Virus record (IMG/VR): IMGVR_UViG_2778261390_000002
Location: 1 to 14,781 of that record
Length of the DNA: 14,781 bases
Strand: one strand, 5' to 3'
From: a virus
Lineage: Duplodnaviria; Heunggongvirae; Uroviricota; Caudoviricetes
Under the pieces are notes generated by a model. The model made no database searches. It saw only the letters and a program-made list of their open reading frames with translations, and was not told the origin of the DNA. The translations under genes and the position numbers were made by a program. Below are positions 2,629 to 14,683 of this stretch, piece after piece (the stretch's first letter is position 1; the number at the start of each line of letters is the position of its first letter).

Positions 2629-2974
2629 TCTCTGCTCCTGTTGATACGGAAAGGGAAACAGGCACACCGTTATTACGCCGCCCGGTCAGCCCCACCACCA
2701 TTGAACCGTCAAAATTGCTGTTGATGGTGATGGAATCCAGCATCAGCCGTGGCTCCCAGCGACTCAGTGCCACATACACAGCCGACATGACCTGCAGCCG
2801 TAATGCCGGATTTTGTGGCTGATCTATTAAAGCCGACAGCAGAGAACCATATTCACGACGAGCAATGCGGCTACCCTGCGGCGTCAGCAGAATGTCCCGC
2901 ACCGACTGGCGCAGATGGTCAATATCAGTAATGGCTTTGCCGCTGGTATTGTTCATCCCGCTATAAAGCGTCAT
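2615..2974 (-). CDS. W: Baseplate wedge protein W (gp25/GPW family)
   Basis: 119-aa ORF starting MTLYSGMNNTSGKAITDIDHLRQSVRDILLTPQGSR..., GPW-like. ATG at 2974 overlaps the V stop (ATGA). GGAGG SD upstream. Confidence 0.9.
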   Translation of the reverse strand: MTLYSGMNNTSGKAITDIDHLRQSVRDILLTPQGSRIARREYGSLLSALIDQPQNPALRLQVMSAVYVALSRWEPRLMLDSITINSNFDGSMVVGLTGRRNNGVPVSLSVSTGAENGSD

Positions 2975-3549
2975 ACCGGGCCTCCGGTTGTGTCGCCGCC
3001 TTTCAGGACACCAGTATGCTGATGCGCATCAAGCACGATCCCGTTAGAACTCATCGCTCCGCCGCCCTGGGTAACACCGCCATTGATCACCACGTCGCTG
3101 TTAATGCGTGTGCGGTCAGCCTCCAGTACAAACTCACTGGTTTTCAGGGTGATGTTGTCGACAGCCTCAATGACCATTGATTTGATGCCCCTGACATACC
3201 AGCGCCCGGTGGCGGGTTCGTATTCAAACCAGCCACCGTCAGGATATTCTGTCACGCAGGCGTCCGCCGACGTCGACGGCGGTGCGAACTGATTCGAATA
3301 GACAGCGGGCAACGCAAAGGCGGTTTCCAGATTGCCACCCAGACTCAGCAGCACCACCTGCTCACCTTCCGATGGTCGCCACCATGTGCGTGCATTCCCG
3401 GCACGCAGCGTCAGCCAGCTGATCCAGTTGGTTTCAAGGTCGCCCGTTTTCACCCGGCAAAGCCAGTTCTCCCGGTCCACTTCGGTGACTACACCAGTGC
3501 GAATCAGGTTGGTGATAAGGCGCATGATTTCGGTTAAATGTGCGTTCAT
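2971..3549 (-). CDS. V: Baseplate spike / assembly protein V (P2 gpV-like)
   Basis: 192-aa ORF starting MNAHLTEIMRLITNLIRTGVVTEVD..., gpV-like. First gene after the S-V intergenic region. No SD upstream of the ATG at 3549; a late-promoter-like architecture ends 6 nt before it, so the mRNA may be leaderless. An internal ATG at 3525 is an alternative start. Confidence 0.85.
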   Translation of the reverse strand: MNAHLTEIMRLITNLIRTGVVTEVDRENWLCRVKTGDLETNWISWLTLRAGNARTWWRPSEGEQVVLLSLGGNLETAFALPAVYSNQFAPPSTSADACVTEYPDGGWFEYEPATGRWYVRGIKSMVIEAVDNITLKTSEFVLEADRTRINSDVVINGGVTQGGGAMSSNGIVLDAHQHTGVLKGGDTTGGPV

Positions 3550-3613
3550 GAGAAAAAACTAACCGCCATTGCAAACGCAATCGAGTAGATAGGAATGTTT
3601 GATTCATGGCACA
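3550..3613 (-). promoter_or_regulatory. Candidate Ogr-type late promoter for V: TGT-N12-ACA box plus -10-like hexamer
   Basis: TGTTTGATTCATGGCACA at 3596-3613 matches the TGT-N12-ACA dyad of P2/P4 late promoters. Its centre is 55.5 nt upstream of the A of the V ATG. On the minus strand TAGTTT (3561-3556) sits 34 nt after the box and 6 nt before the ATG. The same spacing is seen upstream of P. Confidence 0.55.
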
Positions 3614-3641: not shown

Positions 3642-4403
3642 ATGAAAGACAATTTAAATCTTCTTATAAAAAAATTAATAAGAAAGGCATTTCCTGAATT
3701 TAGCAATAAGGTAACATGGACTTTACTCACTGCAGGGATCGGTATTCTTGCACTACCTGCACCCACATATTTATTATTCGTAAACCTTATAATTGATTTT
3801 TACAACAAAACAACTAATTCAGAAATCAGCCTTCTTAAGATTGATAGCATTACACCAAGTAGTGGGGTTGCTTTAACTTTAATTCTATCCGGGCTAGTCT
3901 TTCACCTATTAATAAAAGCCCCCCATATATACCAAGAAATTCTAAAAGAGAATAACCAAAAAGAAATACAGGAAAGAAAAAGAGTAGCAGACGTTAAACT
4001 TTATGAGGCATTTATTGATATTCTACCTACAACCTCGTTATCAATTGAATTCTTAAAAGACCATGATTTTGAAAACTCCTATCATGATAATAATACAAAA
4101 GATATTAGTAATCTTGAATACGGGTGGGGTCATGCAGATCAACATTTTCATGACAATGAAATTGAAGATAAAGCCACTCATCTTTACAGTGAAATAATAA
4201 AGTTTAATTATTTTCTCGCTTATAAATCGCACAATATCAATGACTATATGTTTAGCATGCTTACTGACAGAGATCGAGCTATGGTGATGGAATTACTACC
4301 TCAAACAAAGGAAAATATAAAAATAGCCAATGAGTGGAGTTCTACAATTCATCAGCTTTACTGTGACTTTATCTCCACATGTAGGAATAACTTAGCCATA
4401 TAA
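3642..4403 (+). CDS. Hypothetical membrane protein encoded by an AT-rich moron between V and S; function unknown
   Basis: 253-aa ORF on the strand opposite to all flanking late genes. ATG at 3642 is preceded by AAGGA at 7 nt spacing. Composition is strongly AT-rich (by eye about 30 percent GC against mid-50s or higher in neighbours). Two hydrophobic segments (VTWTLLTAGIGILALPAPTYLLFVNLIIDF and VALTLILSGLVFHLLI) are followed by a roughly 160-aa polar, charged domain. I recognise no catalytic motif. Confidence 0.7.
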   Translation: MKDNLNLLIKKLIRKAFPEFSNKVTWTLLTAGIGILALPAPTYLLFVNLIIDFYNKTTNSEISLLKIDSITPSSGVALTLILSGLVFHLLIKAPHIYQEILKENNQKEIQERKRVADVKLYEAFIDILPTTSLSIEFLKDHDFENSYHDNNTKDISNLEYGWGHADQHFHDNEIEDKATHLYSEIIKFNYFLAYKSHNINDYMFSMLTDRDRAMVMELLPQTKENIKIANEWSSTIHQLYCDFISTCRNNLAI

Positions 4404-9016: not shown

Positions 9017-9850
9017 TCAGCAATTGGTCAGAGTGTCAGCGGGGGCGTTACCGCCTGTTGCACGCTGGCGGTAGTCCTGGCGGCTGTCTTCTTGGCTCAA
9101 CTTGTCCACCAGTTCGTTAAAGGCGGTCTGCTGTGCCTGCAGGGCAGTCTCCAGCTCAGACAGGCGTTCTTCCTGCTCAGACAGGGATTTTTCGGTGCGC
9201 GCACTCAGGTTCTGCTGCTCAGTGGCGACCAGTTCCACGGCCTTATGCACATCAGAGAACCGGGCATCATCGGACTGCTCTTTTTTGGTGAACAGCGCCG
9301 TGACACGGGCAAACAGGGACGGTTTGTCATCCTGGATTTCTTCCAGTTCGATCACCGTTTCCTCTGCAGCGGTAAAAAGATTGGCGGGATTCTGCTTGCG
9401 GTTTGCCAGCGGGTTTTGGGCTGCACTGGCGCTGAATGTCAGCATTTCAGTGCCCAGACTGGCAGGGTCATCAGTGGCAGCCAGGCCGACCAGGTAGGCT
9501 TTGCCCGTATCAGCGAACTTCGGGCTGACTTCCATAGAGGTGAATAATTTCTGGCCTTTTTTCACCAGTTCCACCAGGGACTCCGTTGGCTCAACGTCGG
9601 CATACAGCGCCATCTTGCCTGCCAGCGGACCTTCCGTGATTTCTTCAGCAAACAGCGCCGTCACCTTGCCGTAGCGGTTAAAGGTGCTGTCCGGGAGATA
9701 AGACTTGATGTGCTCAAGGTTAATCAGCGCGGTATACACCGCCGGGTTGTAGCTGGCTGCCATCTGTTCCAGCCATTCACGCTGGATTTCGCGTCCGTCG
9801 GTGGTGGCACCTTCCACCCCGATGCGAAAACGCTTTGCTTTCACTGTCAT
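9017..9850 (-). CDS. O: Capsid scaffolding protein O (P2 gpO-like)
   Basis: 277-aa ORF MTVKAKRFRIGVEGATTDGREIQ...YLVGLAATDDPASLGTEMLTF...ATGGNAPADTLTNC, gpO-like. ATG at 9850 with GGAG SD. First gene of the leftward late operon, divergent from P. Confidence 0.9.
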   Translation of the reverse strand: MTVKAKRFRIGVEGATTDGREIQREWLEQMAASYNPAVYTALINLEHIKSYLPDSTFNRYGKVTALFAEEITEGPLAGKMALYADVEPTESLVELVKKGQKLFTSMEVSPKFADTGKAYLVGLAATDDPASLGTEMLTFSASAAQNPLANRKQNPANLFTAAEETVIELEEIQDDKPSLFARVTALFTKKEQSDDARFSDVHKAVELVATEQQNLSARTEKSLSEQEERLSELETALQAQQTAFNELVDKLSQEDSRQDYRQRATGGNAPADTLTNC

Positions 9851-9928
9851 GAGCCGTGCTCCGTTAGAAAAAACTTACTGGAGCCTTATGGTTGCGGTGA
9901 TGGGGGCAGTGAAACAATGCGCGGTATT

Positions 9929-9992
9929 TGTACCGACAACCACACAAACCGCAGGCGGGGAAAGCCTTCATTCAAGGTTGTAGGTTTGTGCC
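9929..9992 (+). promoter_or_regulatory. Candidate Ogr-type late promoter for P/Q: TGT-N12-ACA box plus -10-like hexamer
   Basis: TGTACCGACAACCACACA at 9929-9946 matches TGT-N12-ACA. Its centre is 55.5 nt upstream of the A of the P ATG. TAGGTT at 9981-9986 sits 34 nt after the box and 6 nt before the ATG. This is the same geometry as upstream of V. Confidence 0.5.
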
Positions 9993-11759
9993 ATGAACAC
10001 CACACTGACACCCGCAGATCTCGATCCCCGTCGGCAGGCCATGCTGCTGTACTTTCAGGGATACCGCGTAGCCCGCATTGCTGAAATGCTGGGCGAGAAA
10101 GTTGCAACCGTTCACAGCTGGAAAAAACGCGACAAGTGGGGTGACTATGGGCCGCTGGATCAGATGCAGCTCACCACCGCCGCACGCTACTGCCAGCTCA
10201 TTATGAAGGAGCACAAAGAAGGGAAAGATTTCAAAGAGATTGACCTGCTGGCGCGCCAGTCTGAGCGCCACGCGCGGATCGGCAAATTTAACAATGGCGG
10301 CAACGAAGCCGACTTAAATCCTAACGTCGCCAACCGCAACAAAGGCCCGCGCCGTCAGCCGGAAAAAAATGTCTTCACCGATGAACAGATTGAGAAGCTG
10401 GAAGAAATCTTCCATTCCTCCATGTTCAACTACCAGCGCCACTGGTGGGAAGCCGGAAAAACCAACCGCATCCGCAACCTGCTGAAGTCACGCCAGATCG
10501 GCGCGACCTTCTATTTTGCCCGTGAAGCCCTGATTGACGCCCTGCTTACCGGACGTAACCAGATTTTCCTTTCTGCCAGTAAGGCACAGGCCCACGTCTT
10601 TAAGCAGTACATCATCGACTTCGCCAAAGAAGTGGAGGTGGAGCTGAAAGGCGATCCGATGGTGCTTCCTAACGGGGCCACGCTTTACTTCCTCGGCACC
10701 AATGCCCGCACGGCCCAGAGTTATCACGGCAACCTGTATCTGGATGAATATTTCTGGATACCGAAATTTCAGGAGCTACGCAAAGTGGCTTCCGGTATGG
10801 CTATTCACAAGAAATGGCGGCAGACCTATTTTTCCACACCATCCAGTCTGACCCACAGTGCTTATCCGTTCTGGTCCGGTGCGCTGTTCAACCGTGGGCG
10901 CAACAAAGCCGATAAGGTGGACATCGACCTGTCCCACAGCAATCTGGCCCCCGGCCTGCTGTGCGCAGACGGGCAATACCGCCAGATAGTCACCGTGGAA
11001 GATGCGGTGCGCGGCGGCTGTAACCTGTTCGATCTCGACCAGTTGCGCATGGAGTACAGCCCGGACGAATACCAGAACCTGCTGATGTGTGAGTTCGTGG
11101 ACGATCTCGCGTCCGTGTTCCCGCTCAGCGAGCTGCAGGCGTGCATGGTGGACAGCTGGGAAGTCTGGACCGACTTTCATGCACTGGCGCTGCGCCCGTT
11201 TGGCTGGCGCGAAGTGTGGATCGGTTATGACCCGGCAAAAGGTACGCAAAACGGCGACAGCGCCGGGTGCGTGGTGGTGGCACCGCCAGCGGTGCCAGGC
11301 GGTAAGTTTCGCATTCTTGAGCGTCACCAGTGGCGCGGGATGGACTTCCGCGCCCAGGCTGACGCCATCAAAAAACTGACCGAACAGTACAACGTGACCT
11401 ATATCGGCATCGACTCAACCGGCGTCGGTCACGGGGTTTACGAGAACGTGAAAGCGTTTTTTCCTGCCGTCCGGGAGTTTGTCTACAACCCCAACGTTAA
11501 AAACGCCCTAGTACTCAAGGCCTACGACATTATTAGCCACCGCCGCCTGGAGTTTGACGCCGGGCACACCGACATAGCGCAGTCCTTTATGGCAATCCGT
11601 CGCGCCACCACTGCCAGCGGCAACCGCCCGACCTATGAAGCCAGCCGCAGCGAAGAAGCCAGCCACGCCGATCTGGCCTGGGCAACAATGCACGCACTGT
11701 TTAACGAACCGCTGCAGGGCGAGTCCGCCAATACCAGCAATATTGTGGAGATTTTTTGA
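9993..11759 (+). CDS. P: Terminase large (ATPase) subunit P (P2 gpP-like)
   Basis: 588-aa ORF, close to the roughly 590 aa of P2 gpP, with gpP-like sequence throughout. 9993 is the first start codon after an in-frame TAG. Stop TGA overlaps the Q ATG (TGATG). Confidence 0.95.
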   Translation: MNTTLTPADLDPRRQAMLLYFQGYRVARIAEMLGEKVATVHSWKKRDKWGDYGPLDQMQLTTAARYCQLIMKEHKEGKDFKEIDLLARQSERHARIGKFNNGGNEADLNPNVANRNKGPRRQPEKNVFTDEQIEKLEEIFHSSMFNYQRHWWEAGKTNRIRNLLKSRQIGATFYFAREALIDALLTGRNQIFLSASKAQAHVFKQYIIDFAKEVEVELKGDPMVLPNGATLYFLGTNARTAQSYHGNLYLDEYFWIPKFQELRKVASGMAIHKKWRQTYFSTPSSLTHSAYPFWSGALFNRGRNKADKVDIDLSHSNLAPGLLCADGQYRQIVTVEDAVRGGCNLFDLDQLRMEYSPDEYQNLLMCEFVDDLASVFPLSELQACMVDSWEVWTDFHALALRPFGWREVWIGYDPAKGTQNGDSAGCVVVAPPAVPGGKFRILERHQWRGMDFRAQADAIKKLTEQYNVTYIGIDSTGVGHGVYENVKAFFPAVREFVYNPNVKNALVLKAYDIISHRRLEFDAGHTDIAQSFMAIRRATTASGNRPTYEASRSEEASHADLAWATMHALFNEPLQGESANTSNIVEIF

Positions 11760-12790
11760 TGGGAAAGAGTAAGAAAAACCGCGCTGCGGCGACGAATCAG
11801 CTCAAGCATAAAAGCCAAACTTCAGCCGAAGCATTCAGCTTTGGCGATCCCGTTCCTGTTCTGGACCGCCGTGAACTGCTGGACTATGTGGAATGCGTAC
11901 AGATGGACCGCTGGTATGAGCCGCCCGTCAGCTTTGACGGACTGGCACGAACCTTCCGCGCCGCCGTGCATCACAGCTCACCAATTGCGGTGAAATGCAA
12001 CATTCTGACCAGTACCTACATCCCTCACCCGCTGCTCAGCCAGCAGGCTTTTTCACGTTTTGTGCAGGACTATCTGGTATTTGGTAACGCCTACCTGGAG
12101 AAACGCACGAACCGCTTCGGTGAAGTTATCGCCCTTGAGCCTGCTCTGGCAAAATACACCCGACGCGGGTTAGACTTGGATACCTACTGGTTTGTGCAAT
12201 ACGGTATGACAACCCAGCCGTATCAGTTCACGAAAGGCAGCATTTTTCATCTGATGGAACCGGACATCAACCAGGAGATCTACGGCCTGCCAGGTTATCT
12301 TTCTGCCATTCCATCAGCCCTGCTCAACGAGTCCGCCACGCTGTTCCGCCGCAAGTATTACATTAACGGCAGTCATGCAGGCTTCATCATGTACATGACC
12401 GATGCCGCGCAGAACCAGGAGGATGTGAACAACCTCCGCAATGCGATGAAAAGCGCCAAAGGCCCTGGCAACTTCCGTAACCTGTTTATGTACTCGCCTA
12501 ACGGTAAAAAGGACGGGCTTCAGATTATCCCGTTGTCAGAAGTGGCGGCGAAGGATGAGTTCCTGAATATCAAGAACGTGAGCCGGGACGACATGATGGC
12601 GGCGCATCGTGTGCCGCCACAAATGATGGGGATAATGCCTAATAATGTCGGGGGGTTTGGGGATGTGGAGAAGGCCAGTCTCGTTTTTGTTCGTAATGAG
12701 TTAATACCATTGCAGAAACGACTAAAGGAACTAAATCACTGGCTTGGTGAGAAAGTAGTTAACTTTAAAACTTATGCCTTAAACTGTTAA
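11759..12790 (+). CDS. Q: Portal protein Q (P2 gpQ-like)
   Basis: 343 aa from ATG 11759 (MGKSKKNRAAATNQ...AFSFGDPVPVLDRRELLDYVECVQMDRWYEPPVSF...), gpQ-like. GGAG lies 10 nt upstream. The ORF-track start at 11756 is a TTG one codon earlier. Confidence 0.95.
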   Translation: MGKSKKNRAAATNQLKHKSQTSAEAFSFGDPVPVLDRRELLDYVECVQMDRWYEPPVSFDGLARTFRAAVHHSSPIAVKCNILTSTYIPHPLLSQQAFSRFVQDYLVFGNAYLEKRTNRFGEVIALEPALAKYTRRGLDLDTYWFVQYGMTTQPYQFTKGSIFHLMEPDINQEIYGLPGYLSAIPSALLNESATLFRRKYYINGSHAGFIMYMTDAAQNQEDVNNLRNAMKSAKGPGNFRNLFMYSPNGKKDGLQIIPLSEVAAKDEFLNIKNVSRDDMMAAHRVPPQMMGIMPNNVGGFGDVEKASLVFVRNELIPLQKRLKELNHWLGEKVVNFKTYALNC

Positions 12791-12835: not shown

Positions 12836-14617
12836 TTAGATTATATTATAGGCCTTCGCTGACATAGATAATGTTCTAATCTGAACTTTTTGGGCATTCC
12901 ATTCCTCATCGTTAGATGAATACTCATCAATAAACTCATTAACCACCTTAAGGTTTGACTTCTTATACTCGTTTATTTTTTGACTTAAGCTATCATTTTT
13001 ACATGATTCATTCAAAGTAAAGCAAAGAGGAAGAAGATTCCCCATTAATCCAACAACCTCTGAGTCAAAACTACTTTGTGCACCAATATGCTCGAGTGAA
13101 ACTAAGTCTAATTTTAACTCATTAGTTCCTCGCAATTTCTTTTCAAAACGTTCAAAAATATACATTATGAGCTTACGCTGGGAGGCTTTTTTATTTGTAT
13201 AAAATAAATTTTTAACAAATGCCTCATTGAATACTTTTTCATTTGGACTTTTCGCAGAAAAGTATGCTATTGCTTCACTAATGGTTGATTCGATACTACG
13301 TTTATTAGTAGCTTTATCAAGGCTTACTGCTAATACTGAATACTTGGCGTCTATGCCAGAGGGTCTTAATCGGCAAATAGCATTAAATCTAAAGTGGAAT
13401 CTCTCTAAACACATTAGACACTCTATTAAACTTTTTTGCGAAAGACTTCTAGATTTATCTCTTCTTTTTCTTAATAATGACAAAATGAATGGGCGAGGGA
13501 TTGAAACATTGAATATTTCAAATGCTTTAAGTGAATTGTAAATATCTCGCTGATCCTGTTGAGGCCAATCATCAATATCTGGAGAAATTATCTTACAATA
13601 TAAATCAACATCTTTATGCAACTCATCCAAAAATGAAATTGCAGTTAATCCATAAACACCATCATTTATCTCTCTTTTAAAGGCACGGTATAGTTGATCT
13701 TCACCTATATAATTAAACTTAGAAAGCCACCAACACCTGACATAATCAACCATTGTAGCGTTACTATCTCTAGCTTCGATGCAATTAGTAATATAATCCC
13801 ATTTCTCTTTGGCTTTATCTATTGGATATGTTTCAATACAACTCTGGAAAACTTTATTTTTAATCAGATCAAGGGAGCTTAAGTTTATTCCCCTTGCATT
13901 CAAAACCTCGAAAATATCATACGCGTCATCTTCCTTGCCTACTGATATCCTTACTAATTTAAGATAATTAGTAACCATATTGTAAACGGCATTCAAGCAA
14001 AAAAGGTAATCTTCCTTTTTATACTTTACTGCACCGTCACGCAACAAAGAAGAACATAATGCTTTCTTTCCTAGCTTTCTGCTTAAATACAACCCAGCAT
14101 ATTGAATCTTTTTATCTTCATCGCAAGTCACATCAGCTTTATGCTCAACTCTATCTTGGAATTTTAGTTTAAAAAAAGCCCTGTCACTATTTTTAGAAAG
14201 CTTCTCAACTACTGAGTCGCCATTAGAACTGACAGAATTTCTATTGAACGTCTGATTTGCGGTTACGATATATGTTTTAAAAATATCATCAGCAAATTCG
14301 GCCTTCCCATTTTTTCTTAAAAACCTAGAAATTAAAGAAAGTAGAATTGTAATAACACTGAAACGCTGCTGACCATCAACAATCTCCAAAACATTATCAC
14401 TGTCAGCACCAGACAATACAATTGTACCAATAAAGTACTCATTGAATTCAAAGTCATCCCCTTTGGGATTTAATTTTATATTTCTTATTATGTCTTGCCA
14501 CAATTCATCAAGTTGTAACTTTTCCCAACTAAATTCTCGTTGATTCCGTGGAATCACATAACGCTGTTTAACAGAAAGTATATTTTTAATATTTAAAGGA
14601 GTTGCATCAAAATTCAT
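12836..14617 (-). CDS. DUF262/DUF1524 (GmrSD-family, ParB-like NTPase plus HNH-like nuclease) protein; putative type IV restriction / anti-phage defence enzyme
   Basis: N-terminal DUF262 motifs are present: RYVIPRNQREFSWEK (IPxxQRxFxW type), EIVDGQQRFSVI (DGQQR) and DIFEVLNARGINLSSLDLIKNK. C-terminal DUF1524 motifs are present: LEHIGAQ (EHIxxQ) and GNLLPLCFTLNESCKND. Strongly AT-rich. Start is most likely ATG at 14617 (MNFDATPLNIKNILS..., 593 aa), with a GGGAA SD-like sequence and a TTGTTT-N17-TAAATT promoter-like sequence upstream. The ORF-track TTG at 14668 would lie upstream of that putative transcription start. Confidence 0.85.
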   Translation of the reverse strand: MNFDATPLNIKNILSVKQRYVIPRNQREFSWEKLQLDELWQDIIRNIKLNPKGDDFEFNEYFIGTIVLSGADSDNVLEIVDGQQRFSVITILLSLISRFLRKNGKAEFADDIFKTYIVTANQTFNRNSVSSNGDSVVEKLSKNSDRAFFKLKFQDRVEHKADVTCDEDKKIQYAGLYLSRKLGKKALCSSLLRDGAVKYKKEDYLFCLNAVYNMVTNYLKLVRISVGKEDDAYDIFEVLNARGINLSSLDLIKNKVFQSCIETYPIDKAKEKWDYITNCIEARDSNATMVDYVRCWWLSKFNYIGEDQLYRAFKREINDGVYGLTAISFLDELHKDVDLYCKIISPDIDDWPQQDQRDIYNSLKAFEIFNVSIPRPFILSLLRKRRDKSRSLSQKSLIECLMCLERFHFRFNAICRLRPSGIDAKYSVLAVSLDKATNKRSIESTISEAIAYFSAKSPNEKVFNEAFVKNLFYTNKKASQRKLIMYIFERFEKKLRGTNELKLDLVSLEHIGAQSSFDSEVVGLMGNLLPLCFTLNESCKNDSLSQKINEYKKSNLKVVNEFIDEYSSNDEEWNAQKVQIRTLSMSAKAYNII

Positions 14618-14654
14618 ATCATCATTCCCTAGACATGACCATGGGTTGATCGTT

Positions 14655-14683
14655 AATTTACTTAACAAGATAGATTAAAACAA
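14655..14683 (-). promoter_or_regulatory. Candidate sigma70-type promoter for the DUF262/DUF1524 gene
   Basis: Minus strand reads TTGTTT (14683-14678), a 17-nt spacer, then TAAATT (14660-14655). Predicted start near 14648, about 30 nt upstream of ATG 14617. Lies in AT-rich DNA, so a chance match is possible. Confidence 0.35.

What the first reader, a model, noticed from the sequence alone, without database searches (positions are those of the whole stretch)
9929..9992. P gene has the same box-to-ATG geometry as V, suggesting a second leaderless late transcript
TGTACCGACAACCACACA (9929-9946) is centred 55.5 nt upstream of the P ATG, with TAGGTT 34 nt after the box and 6 nt before the ATG. This is exactly the spacing found upstream of V (TAGTTT). 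Two independent promoters with identical 18 + 34 + 6 + 6 architecture are unlikely by chance. There is no convincing SD before the P ATG (only AGGT at -14). This suggests the P/Q operon is transcribed from a start at or next to the ATG.
Basis: seen in the sequence. Interest (0 to 1): 0.45.

Follow-up and report, generated by a model that had tools for sequence, protein, structure and literature searches.

The report
Probable leaderless terminase operon promoter
In this P2-like prophage the late promoter of the terminase/portal operon sits so that transcription should begin exactly on the ATG of the terminase gene, a layout conserved in 80 of 80 related prophages but not in the model phages P2 and 186, which carry a 23-base leader there.

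Summary
TGTACCGACAACCACACA (9929-9946), 34 nt, TAGGTT (9981-9986), 6 nt, then the P ATG (9993). The same 18+34+6+6 layout precedes V on the minus strand (3613 to 3547). The composite pattern occurs twice in the window and never in 200 shuffles.

The box is the Ogr/B-type activator site of P2 late promoters, shared with the divergent O promoter. In P2 and 186, whose GenBank records annotate these start sites, +1 lies box+34+hexamer+6. That rule puts +1 here on the A of the P ATG. P2 and 186 have a further 23-nt leader with a GAGG Shine-Dalgarno before their ATG.

All 80 related prophages, with terminase identity down to 71%, keep ACA-34/35-TAnnnT-6/7-ATG. TTGT, ACAA, G-33, T-12, A-11, T-7, C-1 and ATG are invariant in the 59 distinct sequences that share this window's exact spacing. 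The spacer is only 54% identical and has no indels. Shine-Dalgarno complementarity before P is weak and unconserved, and no alternative start codon is conserved.

The leaderless reading is well supported but inferred, because no 5' end has been mapped. It adds a second member to a known kind: P2 gene V is the annotated leaderless late transcript. Interest is moderate.

The parts
9929..9946 (.). TGT-N12-ACA dyad, inferred as the binding site of the Ogr/B-type zinc-finger late activator. It is shared by the divergent P (rightward) and O (leftward) late promoters.
   Evidence: TTGT and ACAA are invariant in 59 distinct relatives. The P2 and 186 records annotate a single activator site for pP+pO and for p12+pV at the homologous place.
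9958..9963 (+). Weak -35-like element GGGAAA of the P promoter, 17 bp upstream of the -10 hexamer.
   Evidence: G9960 (-33) is invariant in all 81 aligned sequences. No consensus sigma-70 promoter is found here, as expected for an activator-dependent promoter.
9981..9986 (+). -10 hexamer TAGGTT of the P promoter.
   Evidence: T-12, A-11 and T-7 are invariant while the middle three bases vary (TATGTT, TAGTCT, TATTTT, TAATCT, TAGGCT). It is homologous to TAGCCT, which lies 6 nt before the annotated +1 in P2 and 186.
9993..9993 (+). Predicted transcription start of the P-Q operon, which is the A of the P start codon (inferred, not mapped).
   Evidence: Box+34+hexamer+6 rule from P2 and 186. C-1 and A+1 are invariant in 59 of 59 distinct sequences.
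9993..11759 (+). Gene P, terminase large subunit (588 aa).
   Evidence: Pfam Terminase_5 (residues 11-68), Terminase_6N and Terminase_6C. 63% identical to P2 gpP over the first 290 aa.
11759..12790 (+). Gene Q, portal protein. Its start ATG at 11759 overlaps the P stop as TGATG, and GGAG lies 8 nt upstream.
   Evidence: Phage_portal.
9912..9917 (-). -35-like TTGTTT of the divergent O promoter, the mirror image of the P promoter's -35 position.
   Evidence: GAaACAA at -82..-76 is conserved, with ACAA invariant.
9888..9894 (-). -10 region of the O promoter (CAACCA, or AACCAT one base further). The predicted O start is near 9882 (plus or minus 3), giving a leader of about 32 nt.
   Evidence: Mirror symmetry about the box, as for the P2 pO start at 3127. 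The block GCAAMCATAAGGC is conserved.
9859..9862 (-). Shine-Dalgarno GGAG of gene O.
   Evidence: Anti-SD duplex energy is -5.8 kcal/mol here, averages -5.6 across relatives, and reaches -4.4 or stronger in 95% of them.
9017..9850 (-). Gene O, capsid scaffold/protease, first gene of the divergent late operon.
   Evidence: Pfam Phage_GPO, E 7e-113.
3596..3613 (.). TGT-N12-ACA activator site of the V promoter.
   Evidence: P2 annotates an activator site centred 55.5 nt before the V start.
3556..3561 (-). -10 hexamer TAGTTT of the V promoter, 6 nt before the V ATG.
2971..3549 (-). Gene V (baseplate spike). The predicted leaderless start is at 3549.
   Evidence: Pfam Phage_base_V and GpV Apex. The P2 record places the V operon start on the first base of the V coding sequence.

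Best explanation
The segment 9929-9995 is the late promoter of the terminase-portal (P-Q) operon of a P2-like prophage; the closest phage record, Escherichia phage 500465-1, is a Wadgaonvirus, and SopEPhi (Felsduovirus) shares the region. An Ogr/B-type zinc-finger activator binds the TGT-N12-ACA dyad. From there it recruits sigma-70 RNA polymerase to a weak -35 (G at -33) and a TAnnnT -10 on both sides, driving the O operon leftward and the P-Q operon rightward. On the P side the -10 hexamer ends 6 nt before the ATG, so RNA synthesis starts at or within one or two bases of the A of the ATG. P is then translated from a 5'-terminal AUG without a leader or Shine-Dalgarno sequence. Q follows by translational coupling (TGATG overlap plus its own GGAG). 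Leaderless mRNAs are translated poorly in E. coli. This would let one shared activator site transcribe both divergent operons while keeping terminase low relative to the SD-bearing capsid genes. What is shown: the geometry, its conservation, the homology to annotated P2 and 186 start sites, and the start codon. What is inferred: activator binding, the exact +1, leaderless translation and the stoichiometry rationale.
For: (a) The spacing is exact and the composite pattern has 2 hits against 0 expected.

(b) P2 RefSeq annotates the P-operon start at 3016 and the O-operon start at 3127 around one activator site. In the sequence each start lies box(18)+34+hexamer(6)+6. The annotated 186 p12 promoter feature ends on the equivalent G. 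Both phages then have 23 nt containing GAGG before the ATG, and this window has 0.

(c) P2 annotates the V-operon start on the first base of the V coding sequence. P2 is cited among the few leaderless cases in E. coli, with Christie & Calendar 1985 as reference (PMC4633059).

(d) 80 loci from different species, 100-71% identical in P, all fit ACA-34/35-TAnnnT-6/7-ATG. The 64 sequences (the window and 63 of these loci) with a perfect dyad centred 55.5 nt from the ATG give 59 distinct sequences. In these, TTGT, ACAA, G-33, G-17, T-12, A-11, T-7, C-1 and ATG are invariant, while the 34-nt spacer is 54% identical on average (minimum 15%) with no indel.

(e) The hexamer's middle bases vary freely, which fits a -10 element and not an SD. 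The anti-SD energy before P averages -3.2 kcal/mol and reaches -4.4 in only 29% of sequences, against -5.6 and 95% for O in the same loci.

(f) The ATG is invariant and indels after it are multiples of 3. The next in-frame ATG (M17) is present in only 48 of 81 sequences. The conserved Terminase_5 domain starts at residue 11.

(g) The first 12 nt of the predicted mRNA are unpaired and the 5' end is no more structured than shuffles (z = +0.9). Positions +4..+21 are 75% A+C and 11% G, against 47% and 29% further in.

(h) The hexamer-6/7-ATG layout recurs in SopEPhi, Yersinia vB_YenM_201.16, Ralstonia RSA1, Burkholderia KS5 and phiE202, and a phiCTX-like Pseudomonas phage.

(i) An Ogr_Delta zinc-finger gene follows the tail gene D in the closest phage.
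Against: No 5' end has been mapped for this clade, and the only transcriptome table I could reach (SL1344, which carries SopEPhi) lists no late-promoter start. Leaderless translation is weak in E. coli, and terminase is essential. In this particular sequence two AGGT motifs upstream of the ATG give an anti-SD energy of -5.6 kcal/mol, so a leadered minor transcript cannot be excluded. Nine loci have 7 rather than 6 nt after the hexamer, so the start could fall at -1 there. The ogr-like gene of this prophage lies outside the window. The P2 and 186 start sites are taken from GenBank annotation, not from the primary papers, which I could not read.
Confidence: 0.75

Rival explanations
1. Leadered transcript: transcription starts 15 or more nt upstream of the ATG, from another -10 in the spacer or by read-through, and P is translated through the weak AGGT/AAGGT Shine-Dalgarno-like motifs at -18..-8.
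For: In this window the upstream 18 nt pair with the anti-SD at -5.6 kcal/mol, similar to gene O. P2 and 186 do use a leader with an SD. Leaderless translation is inefficient in E. coli (PMC4633059).
Against: The SD-like motifs are not conserved (mean -3.2 kcal/mol, some sequences above 0). The only conserved positions between box and ATG are G-33, G-17, C-15, G-13, T-12, A-11, T-7 and C-1, which is a promoter pattern. No second -10-like element is conserved and no consensus promoter is found. The upstream DNA on this strand is antisense to the O-N-M-L operon.
Confidence: 0.1
2. Near-leaderless: RNA polymerase starts 1-3 nt before the ATG (for example at C9992), giving a very short 5' UTR without an SD.
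For: Start-site choice wobbles by one or two bases. Nine loci have 7 nt between hexamer and ATG. The V start in P2 was mapped with 1980s methods (my recollection).
Against: Pyrimidine at -1 followed by purine at +1 is the preferred start context (general knowledge), and C-1/A+1 is invariant. In P2 and 186 the annotated +1 is exactly 6 nt after the hexamer. Functionally this variant differs little from the main explanation.
Confidence: 0.12
3. Mis-assigned start codon: P really starts downstream at ATG 10041 (M17), and 9993-10040 is a 48-nt untranslated leader.
For: An in-frame ATG exists at 10041, preceded by GGCAGG.
Against: That codon is ATG in only 48 of 81 relatives and is GCA, GCC, CTA, TTG and others elsewhere. 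P2 has Ala there. The Terminase_5 domain begins at residue 11. Indels between 9993 and the conserved block are multiples of three. The ATG at 9993 is invariant.
Confidence: 0.03

Closest known systems
Bacteriophage P2 late promoter P_V and gene V mRNA
   Same: An activator site is centred about 55 nt upstream of the start. The P2 record places the start on the first base of the V coding sequence. It is a late structural operon and is cited as one of the few leaderless mRNAs in E. coli (PMC4633059). The window's own V promoter has the same layout as its P promoter.
   Different: It is a different gene (baseplate spike, not terminase). The P2 P_V dyad reads TGT-N11-ACA and its -10 is less clear. 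The V start is annotated in the P2 record, whereas the P start here is inferred.
P2 P_P / P_O and 186 p12 / pV divergent late promoters
   Same: These are the orthologous intergenic regions. One shared Ogr/B site serves two divergent promoters, with the same box+34+TAGCCT+6 geometry to +1 and the same flanking genes.
   Different: P2 and 186 have a 23-nt leader with a GAGG Shine-Dalgarno between +1 and the P ATG. This window has none, and its intergenic region is 142 bp against 173 bp in P2. Their left half-site is TGG rather than TGT. In a terminase tree, P2+186 (100% bootstrap) are sister (97%) to a Yersinia phage with the leaderless geometry, so the leader looks derived.
Lambda cI mRNA from P_RM and Tn1721 tetR
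   Same: They are leaderless mRNAs of mobile elements in E. coli with a 5'-terminal AUG, and they encode low-abundance proteins (PMC4633059, PMC3293720).
   Different: They are regulatory genes rather than a late morphogenetic operon, with a different activator and promoter type. Their 5' ends are mapped and their translation has been studied.

Membership tests
P2-type (Ogr/B/Delta-dependent) late promoter | Dyad TGT-N12-ACA (one mismatch tolerated) upstream of a late operon. | tested here: met
   A perfect dyad lies at 9929-9946 and at 3596-3613. TTGT and ACAA are invariant in relatives.
P2-type (Ogr/B/Delta-dependent) late promoter | Dyad centred about -55 from the transcription start. | tested here: inconclusive
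   There is no mapped start for this phage. The dyad-to-hexamer distance (34 nt) is identical to that of P2 P_P, P2 P_O and 186 p12, whose annotated starts lie 55.5 nt from the dyad centre.
P2-type (Ogr/B/Delta-dependent) late promoter | Poor -35, TAnnnT-type -10, and no match to a consensus sigma-70 promoter. | tested here: met
   No consensus promoter is found. T-12, A-11 and T-7 are invariant, and only G-33 is conserved in the -35 region.
P2-type (Ogr/B/Delta-dependent) late promoter | Transcription depends on an Ogr_Delta zinc-finger activator encoded by the phage. | not testable with these tools
   The gene is not in the window. The closest phage, 500465-1, encodes a 72-aa Ogr_Delta protein (E 9e-21) after gene D. 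Dependence needs an experiment.
Leaderless mRNA | Transcription starts on, or within a few nt of, the first base of the start codon. | not testable with these tools
   This is inferred from promoter geometry and conservation only. The SL1344 dRNA-seq table has no late-gene start for SopEPhi.
Leaderless mRNA | AUG start codon, which E. coli requires for unleadered translation (Van Etten & Janssen 1998; title read in the reference list of PMC4633059). | tested here: met
   ATG is present in 81 of 81 aligned sequences and in the other genera with the same geometry.
Leaderless mRNA | No conserved Shine-Dalgarno sequence upstream of the start codon. | tested here: met
   The mean anti-SD energy is -3.2 kcal/mol for P against -5.6 for O in the same loci. 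The hexamer's middle bases are free to vary. This window alone scores -5.6.

The most novel reading that the evidence does not exclude
A leaderless terminase-portal operon is the common, probably older, state in a large part of the Peduoviridae: Wadgaonvirus and Felsduovirus-like prophages of Enterobacterales, Yersinia, Ralstonia, Burkholderia and phiCTX-like phages. The 23-nt SD-bearing leader of the model phages P2 and 186 is then a derived insertion. Leaderless translation would be the device that sets low terminase output relative to capsid proteins from a single bidirectional activator site.
Probability: 0.45. Interest if true: 0.55.

Novelty: new member of a known kind. Interest (0 to 1): 0.4.

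Why it matters
Natural leaderless mRNAs in E. coli are few; lambda cI, P2 V and Tn1721 tetR are the usual examples. If confirmed, this adds an essential late gene whose promoter region is present in 1,086 of 5,426 complete E. coli genomes and in many other Enterobacterales. It also supplies natural orthologous pairs, leaderless here and in SopEPhi and leadered in P2 and 186, under the same activator. Such pairs are a clean system for asking what leaderless translation is for. On the practical side, gene callers and annotators should not expect a ribosome-binding site before this terminase gene. The P2 start site, 23 nt upstream of P, should not be transferred to these phages by homology.

Tried and rejected
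- **Literature.** I found no paper in the held library linking 'leaderless' with 'P2 gene V' or with P2-like late promoters. Julien & Calendar 1995 and the 2016 P2 review are not held. The P2 and 186 start sites therefore rest on GenBank annotation, plus the citation of Christie & Calendar 1985 in PMC4633059.
- **Direct 5'-end data.** The SL1344 dRNA-seq master table (PMC3293720; SL1344 carries SopEPhi) lists starts for the ogr-like gene, the tail sheath gene and sopE. It lists none between SL1344_2674 and SL1344_2696, so the late promoters appear silent there. Its table of leaderless transcripts was truncated in storage.
- **IMG/VR scan with P.** It returned 80 loci at 99-100% identity, which are useless for a spacing test. 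The one-genome-per-species collection gave the needed diversity.
- **Consensus promoter scan.** It found nothing in 9800-10050. This is uninformative for activator-dependent promoters. The one terminator-like hairpin, on the minus strand at 9935-9922, overlaps the box and is within the shuffle expectation.
- **Second TGT-N12-ACA at 9987-10004.** It overlaps the ATG and was considered as a second activator site like that of the P4 P_sid promoter (my recollection). I rejected this because the left half is TGG or GGC in relatives.
- **Downstream start at M17.** Rejected.
- **Origin of the P2 leader.** P2 has an 11-nt direct repeat, GTATTCATCAC...GTATTCATGAC. I noted it as a possible duplication origin but did not pursue it, and 186 does not show the repeat clearly.
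- **Bootstrap values for deep nodes of the NJ tree.** These are unreliable after rooting. I use only the P2+186 (100%) and Yen201+P2+186 (97%) nodes.

Full report
**What the window is.** The 14.8-kb window is the late region of a P2-like prophage, inverted relative to the P2 map. The genes are P (terminase large subunit, 9993-11759 +), Q (portal, 11759-12790 +), O (scaffold, 9017-9850 -), then N, M, L and onward to S on the minus strand, and V (2971-3549 -). At the DNA level it is about 99% identical to Escherichia phage 500465-1 (Wadgaonvirus). It is about 98% identical to many Klebsiella prophages and 91% identical to Salmonella SopEPhi, but it is not alignable to P2 by megablast. The P-O intergenic region with its flanks occurs in 1,086 of 5,426 complete E. 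coli genomes.

**The observation.**
- Upstream of P: box 9929-9946, 34 nt, TAGGTT 9981-9986, 6 nt, ATG 9993.
- Upstream of V on the minus strand: box 3613-3596, 34 nt, TAGTTT, 6 nt, ATG 3549.

The composite pattern TGT-N12-ACA-N34-TAnnnT-N6-ATG hits exactly these two places, with none in 200 shuffles. The bare dyad is not significant on its own: 5 hits against 3.4 expected.

**What the box is.** P2 RefSeq annotates one 'activator binding site; pO, pP promoters' between genes P and O. It also annotates a P-operon start at 3016, an O-operon start at 3127, the P ATG at 2993 and the O ATG at 3167. Reading the P2 sequence, the dyad is TGGCTTATCACTGACACA. On the P side it is followed by 34 nt, TAGCCT, 6 nt, and then the annotated +1 (G). 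On the O side it is followed by 34 nt, GAAACT, 6 nt, and then the annotated +1. Phage 186 has the same structure: one B-protein site, then 34 nt, TAGCCT, 6 nt, and the G on which the annotated p12 promoter feature ends. So box(18)+34+hexamer(6)+6 leads to +1 in the two model phages whose records annotate these promoters and start sites. Both then have 23 more nucleotides, containing GAGG, before the P ATG. In the window the same rule lands on A9993, the first base of the start codon. The window's intergenic region is 142 bp against 173 bp in P2.

**The V precedent.** The P2 record places the V-operon start on the first base of the V coding sequence, 55.5 nt from the centre of its activator site. 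P2 is cited, with Christie & Calendar 1985 as reference, among the few leaderless cases known in E. coli (PMC4633059). The P2 F promoter has a leader of about 25 nt. P2 leaders are therefore 23 nt (P), 40 nt (O), 0 nt (V) and about 25 nt (F). The window's V promoter repeats the leaderless layout. The closest phage, 500465-1, keeps the same total distance with a different sequence.

**Comparative test.** A scan of one genome per species returned 80 loci from Escherichia, Citrobacter, Klebsiella, Enterobacter, Pantoea, Erwinia, Photorhabdus, Xenorhabdus, Providencia, Yersinia, Rahnella, Pectobacterium and others. Their P identity to the window ranges from 100% to 71%.
- All 80 loci, plus the window itself, fit ACA-34/35-TAnnnT-6/7-ATG at the homologous ATG. 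Counts among the 81 sequences: 70 have 34+6, 2 have 35+6 and 9 have 35+7 (the regex's '36' class is the ACACA overlap of the 34 class).
- Sixty-four of the 81 sequences (the window and 63 loci) have a perfect TGT-N12-ACA centred 55.5 nt from the ATG.
- These 64 give 59 distinct sequences. In them the invariant positions are TTGT (-65..-62), ACAA (-49..-46), G-33, G-17, T-12, A-11, T-7, C-1 and ATG.
- The 34-nt spacer is on average only 54% identical (minimum 15%) and has no indel.
- The hexamer varies only in its middle three bases (TATGTT, TAGTCT, TATTTT, TAATCT, TAGGCT, TAGGTT). This is the signature of a -10 element, not of a Shine-Dalgarno sequence.
- G-33 sits where the G of a -35 TTGACA would be with a 17-bp spacer. 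Its mirror on the O side is a conserved TTGTTT.
- An invariant pyrimidine at -1 and purine at +1 is the preferred start context.

**Ribosome-binding site and start codon.**
- The anti-SD duplex energy for the 18 nt before P averages -3.2 kcal/mol and reaches -4.4 in 29% of distinct sequences. For O in the same loci the figures are -5.6 kcal/mol and 95%.
- This window is among the better scorers at -5.6, because of AAGGT and TAGGT. Those motifs are not conserved.
- The ATG is invariant, and indels between it and the conserved DPRRQ block are multiples of three.
- The next in-frame ATG (M17, 10041) is present in only 48 of 81 sequences.
- Pfam Terminase_5 starts at residue 11.
- The in-frame triplet at 9981-9983 is TAG, so no upstream start is possible in this window.
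- The first 12 nt of the predicted mRNA are unpaired, and the 5' 60 nt fold no better than shuffles.
- Positions +4..+21 are 75% A+C and 11% G across 68 distinct sequences, against 47% and 29% further downstream. This suits an unstructured 5' end. I recall CA-rich downstream regions being reported to enhance unleadered translation, but I did not check that source.

**Breadth in the family.** The hexamer-6/7-ATG layout is also found before the terminase gene in these phages.

| Phage | Genus or host | Hexamer and gap to ATG | Note |
|---|---|---|---|
| SopEPhi | Felsduovirus | TATGTT + 6 | |
| vB_YenM_201.16 | Yersinia | TAGCCT + 6 | |
| RSA1 | Ralstonia | TAGCGT + 6 | dyad is N13 and only 28 nt from the hexamer |
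| KS5 | Burkholderia | TAGCCT + 6 | |
| phiE202 | Burkholderia | TACGCT + 7 | |
| BR319a | phiCTX-like, Pseudomonas | CAGCAT + 7 | RefSeq calls an upstream GTG as the start |

A Reipivirus (Kp4845-1) has the same box+34+TAATCT+6 upstream geometry, followed by a 16-nt leader containing GGGGGA. More distant phages (Vibrio yong1, ESSI2_ev129, Mannheimia) look leadered and lack the dyad at this spacing. Smp131 is unclear. A neighbour-joining tree of the first 290 aa of TerL groups P2 with 186 (100%) and places them as sister to the Yersinia phage with the leaderless geometry (97%). By parsimony the 23-nt leader is therefore a derived insertion. The tree is small and phage mosaicism is a caveat.

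**Mechanism proposed.** An Ogr-family activator binds the dyad; a 72-aa Ogr_Delta protein is encoded after gene D in the closest phage. It activates both divergent promoters. The O transcript has a leader of about 32 nt with GGAG. The P transcript begins on its AUG. Q is coupled through TGATG and has its own GGAG. Leaderless translation in E. coli is reported to be about tenfold weaker than leadered translation (PMC4633059). The arrangement would therefore give low terminase output next to abundant capsid proteins from one regulatory site. That rationale is inference.

**What is missing.** There is no mapped 5' end. The SL1344 dRNA-seq table has no start in the SopEPhi late operons. The primary P2 papers were not readable here. 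I put 0.75 on a start at 9993 (plus or minus 2) with leaderless translation, including the near-leaderless variant at the margin. I put about 0.1 on a leadered transcript and 0.03 on a downstream start codon.

**Verdict.** The finding is a new member of a known kind: a second leaderless late transcript of the P2 type, in a gene that is leadered in the model phages. Interest is moderate (0.4). It would rise if the broader evolutionary reading holds.

Noticed in passing
window 12836-14668 (-), within the 33% GC island 12.5-14.8 kb: A 610-aa ORF directly after the portal gene has GmrSD_N and GmrSD_C domains and matches the PADLOC models HEC-06 (E 3e-73), Orf5 and mREase_IV. It is probably a type IV (modification-dependent) restriction or defence gene carried as a low-GC moron.
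   Followed up: partly
window 3642-4403 (+), within the 33% GC island 3.5-4.5 kb: A 253-aa ORF lies between S and V, divergent from V and in the same position as the nonessential orf30 of P2. It has no Pfam or PADLOC match and is absent from the closest phage, 500465-1, where S and V are 68 nt apart. Its ATG is only 29 nt from the V activator box.
   Followed up: partly
window 11745-11761: The P stop and the Q start overlap as TGATG, with GGAG 8 nt upstream. The real Q start is therefore ATG 11759, not the TTG at 11756 listed mechanically.
   Followed up: yes
window 9987-10004: A further perfect TGT-N12-ACA (TGTGCCATGAACACCACA) overlaps the P start codon. Its left half is not conserved in relatives, so it is probably a chance match.
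   Followed up: yes
L001 (P2) 417-384, minus strand: The P2 leader carries an 11-nt direct repeat, GTATTCATCAC...GTATTCATGAC. Its first copy starts at the annotated +1 and its second copy contains the P ATG. This is a possible trace of how the leader arose.
   Followed up: no
L164 (Ralstonia RSA1) 493-600; L168 (phiCTX-like BR319a) 380-403: In RSA1 the dyad is TGT-N13-ACA and lies only 28 nt from the hexamer, about -50 from the ATG, which is half a helical turn off the enterobacterial spacing. In BR319a RefSeq calls a GTG start 21 nt upstream of the conserved ATG, inside the predicted promoter, which may be a mis-annotation.
   Followed up: no
window 9978: The window has T at -15 where 98% of distinct relatives have C. 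The nearest relatives L083 and L084 have C there. The functional meaning is unknown.
   Followed up: no
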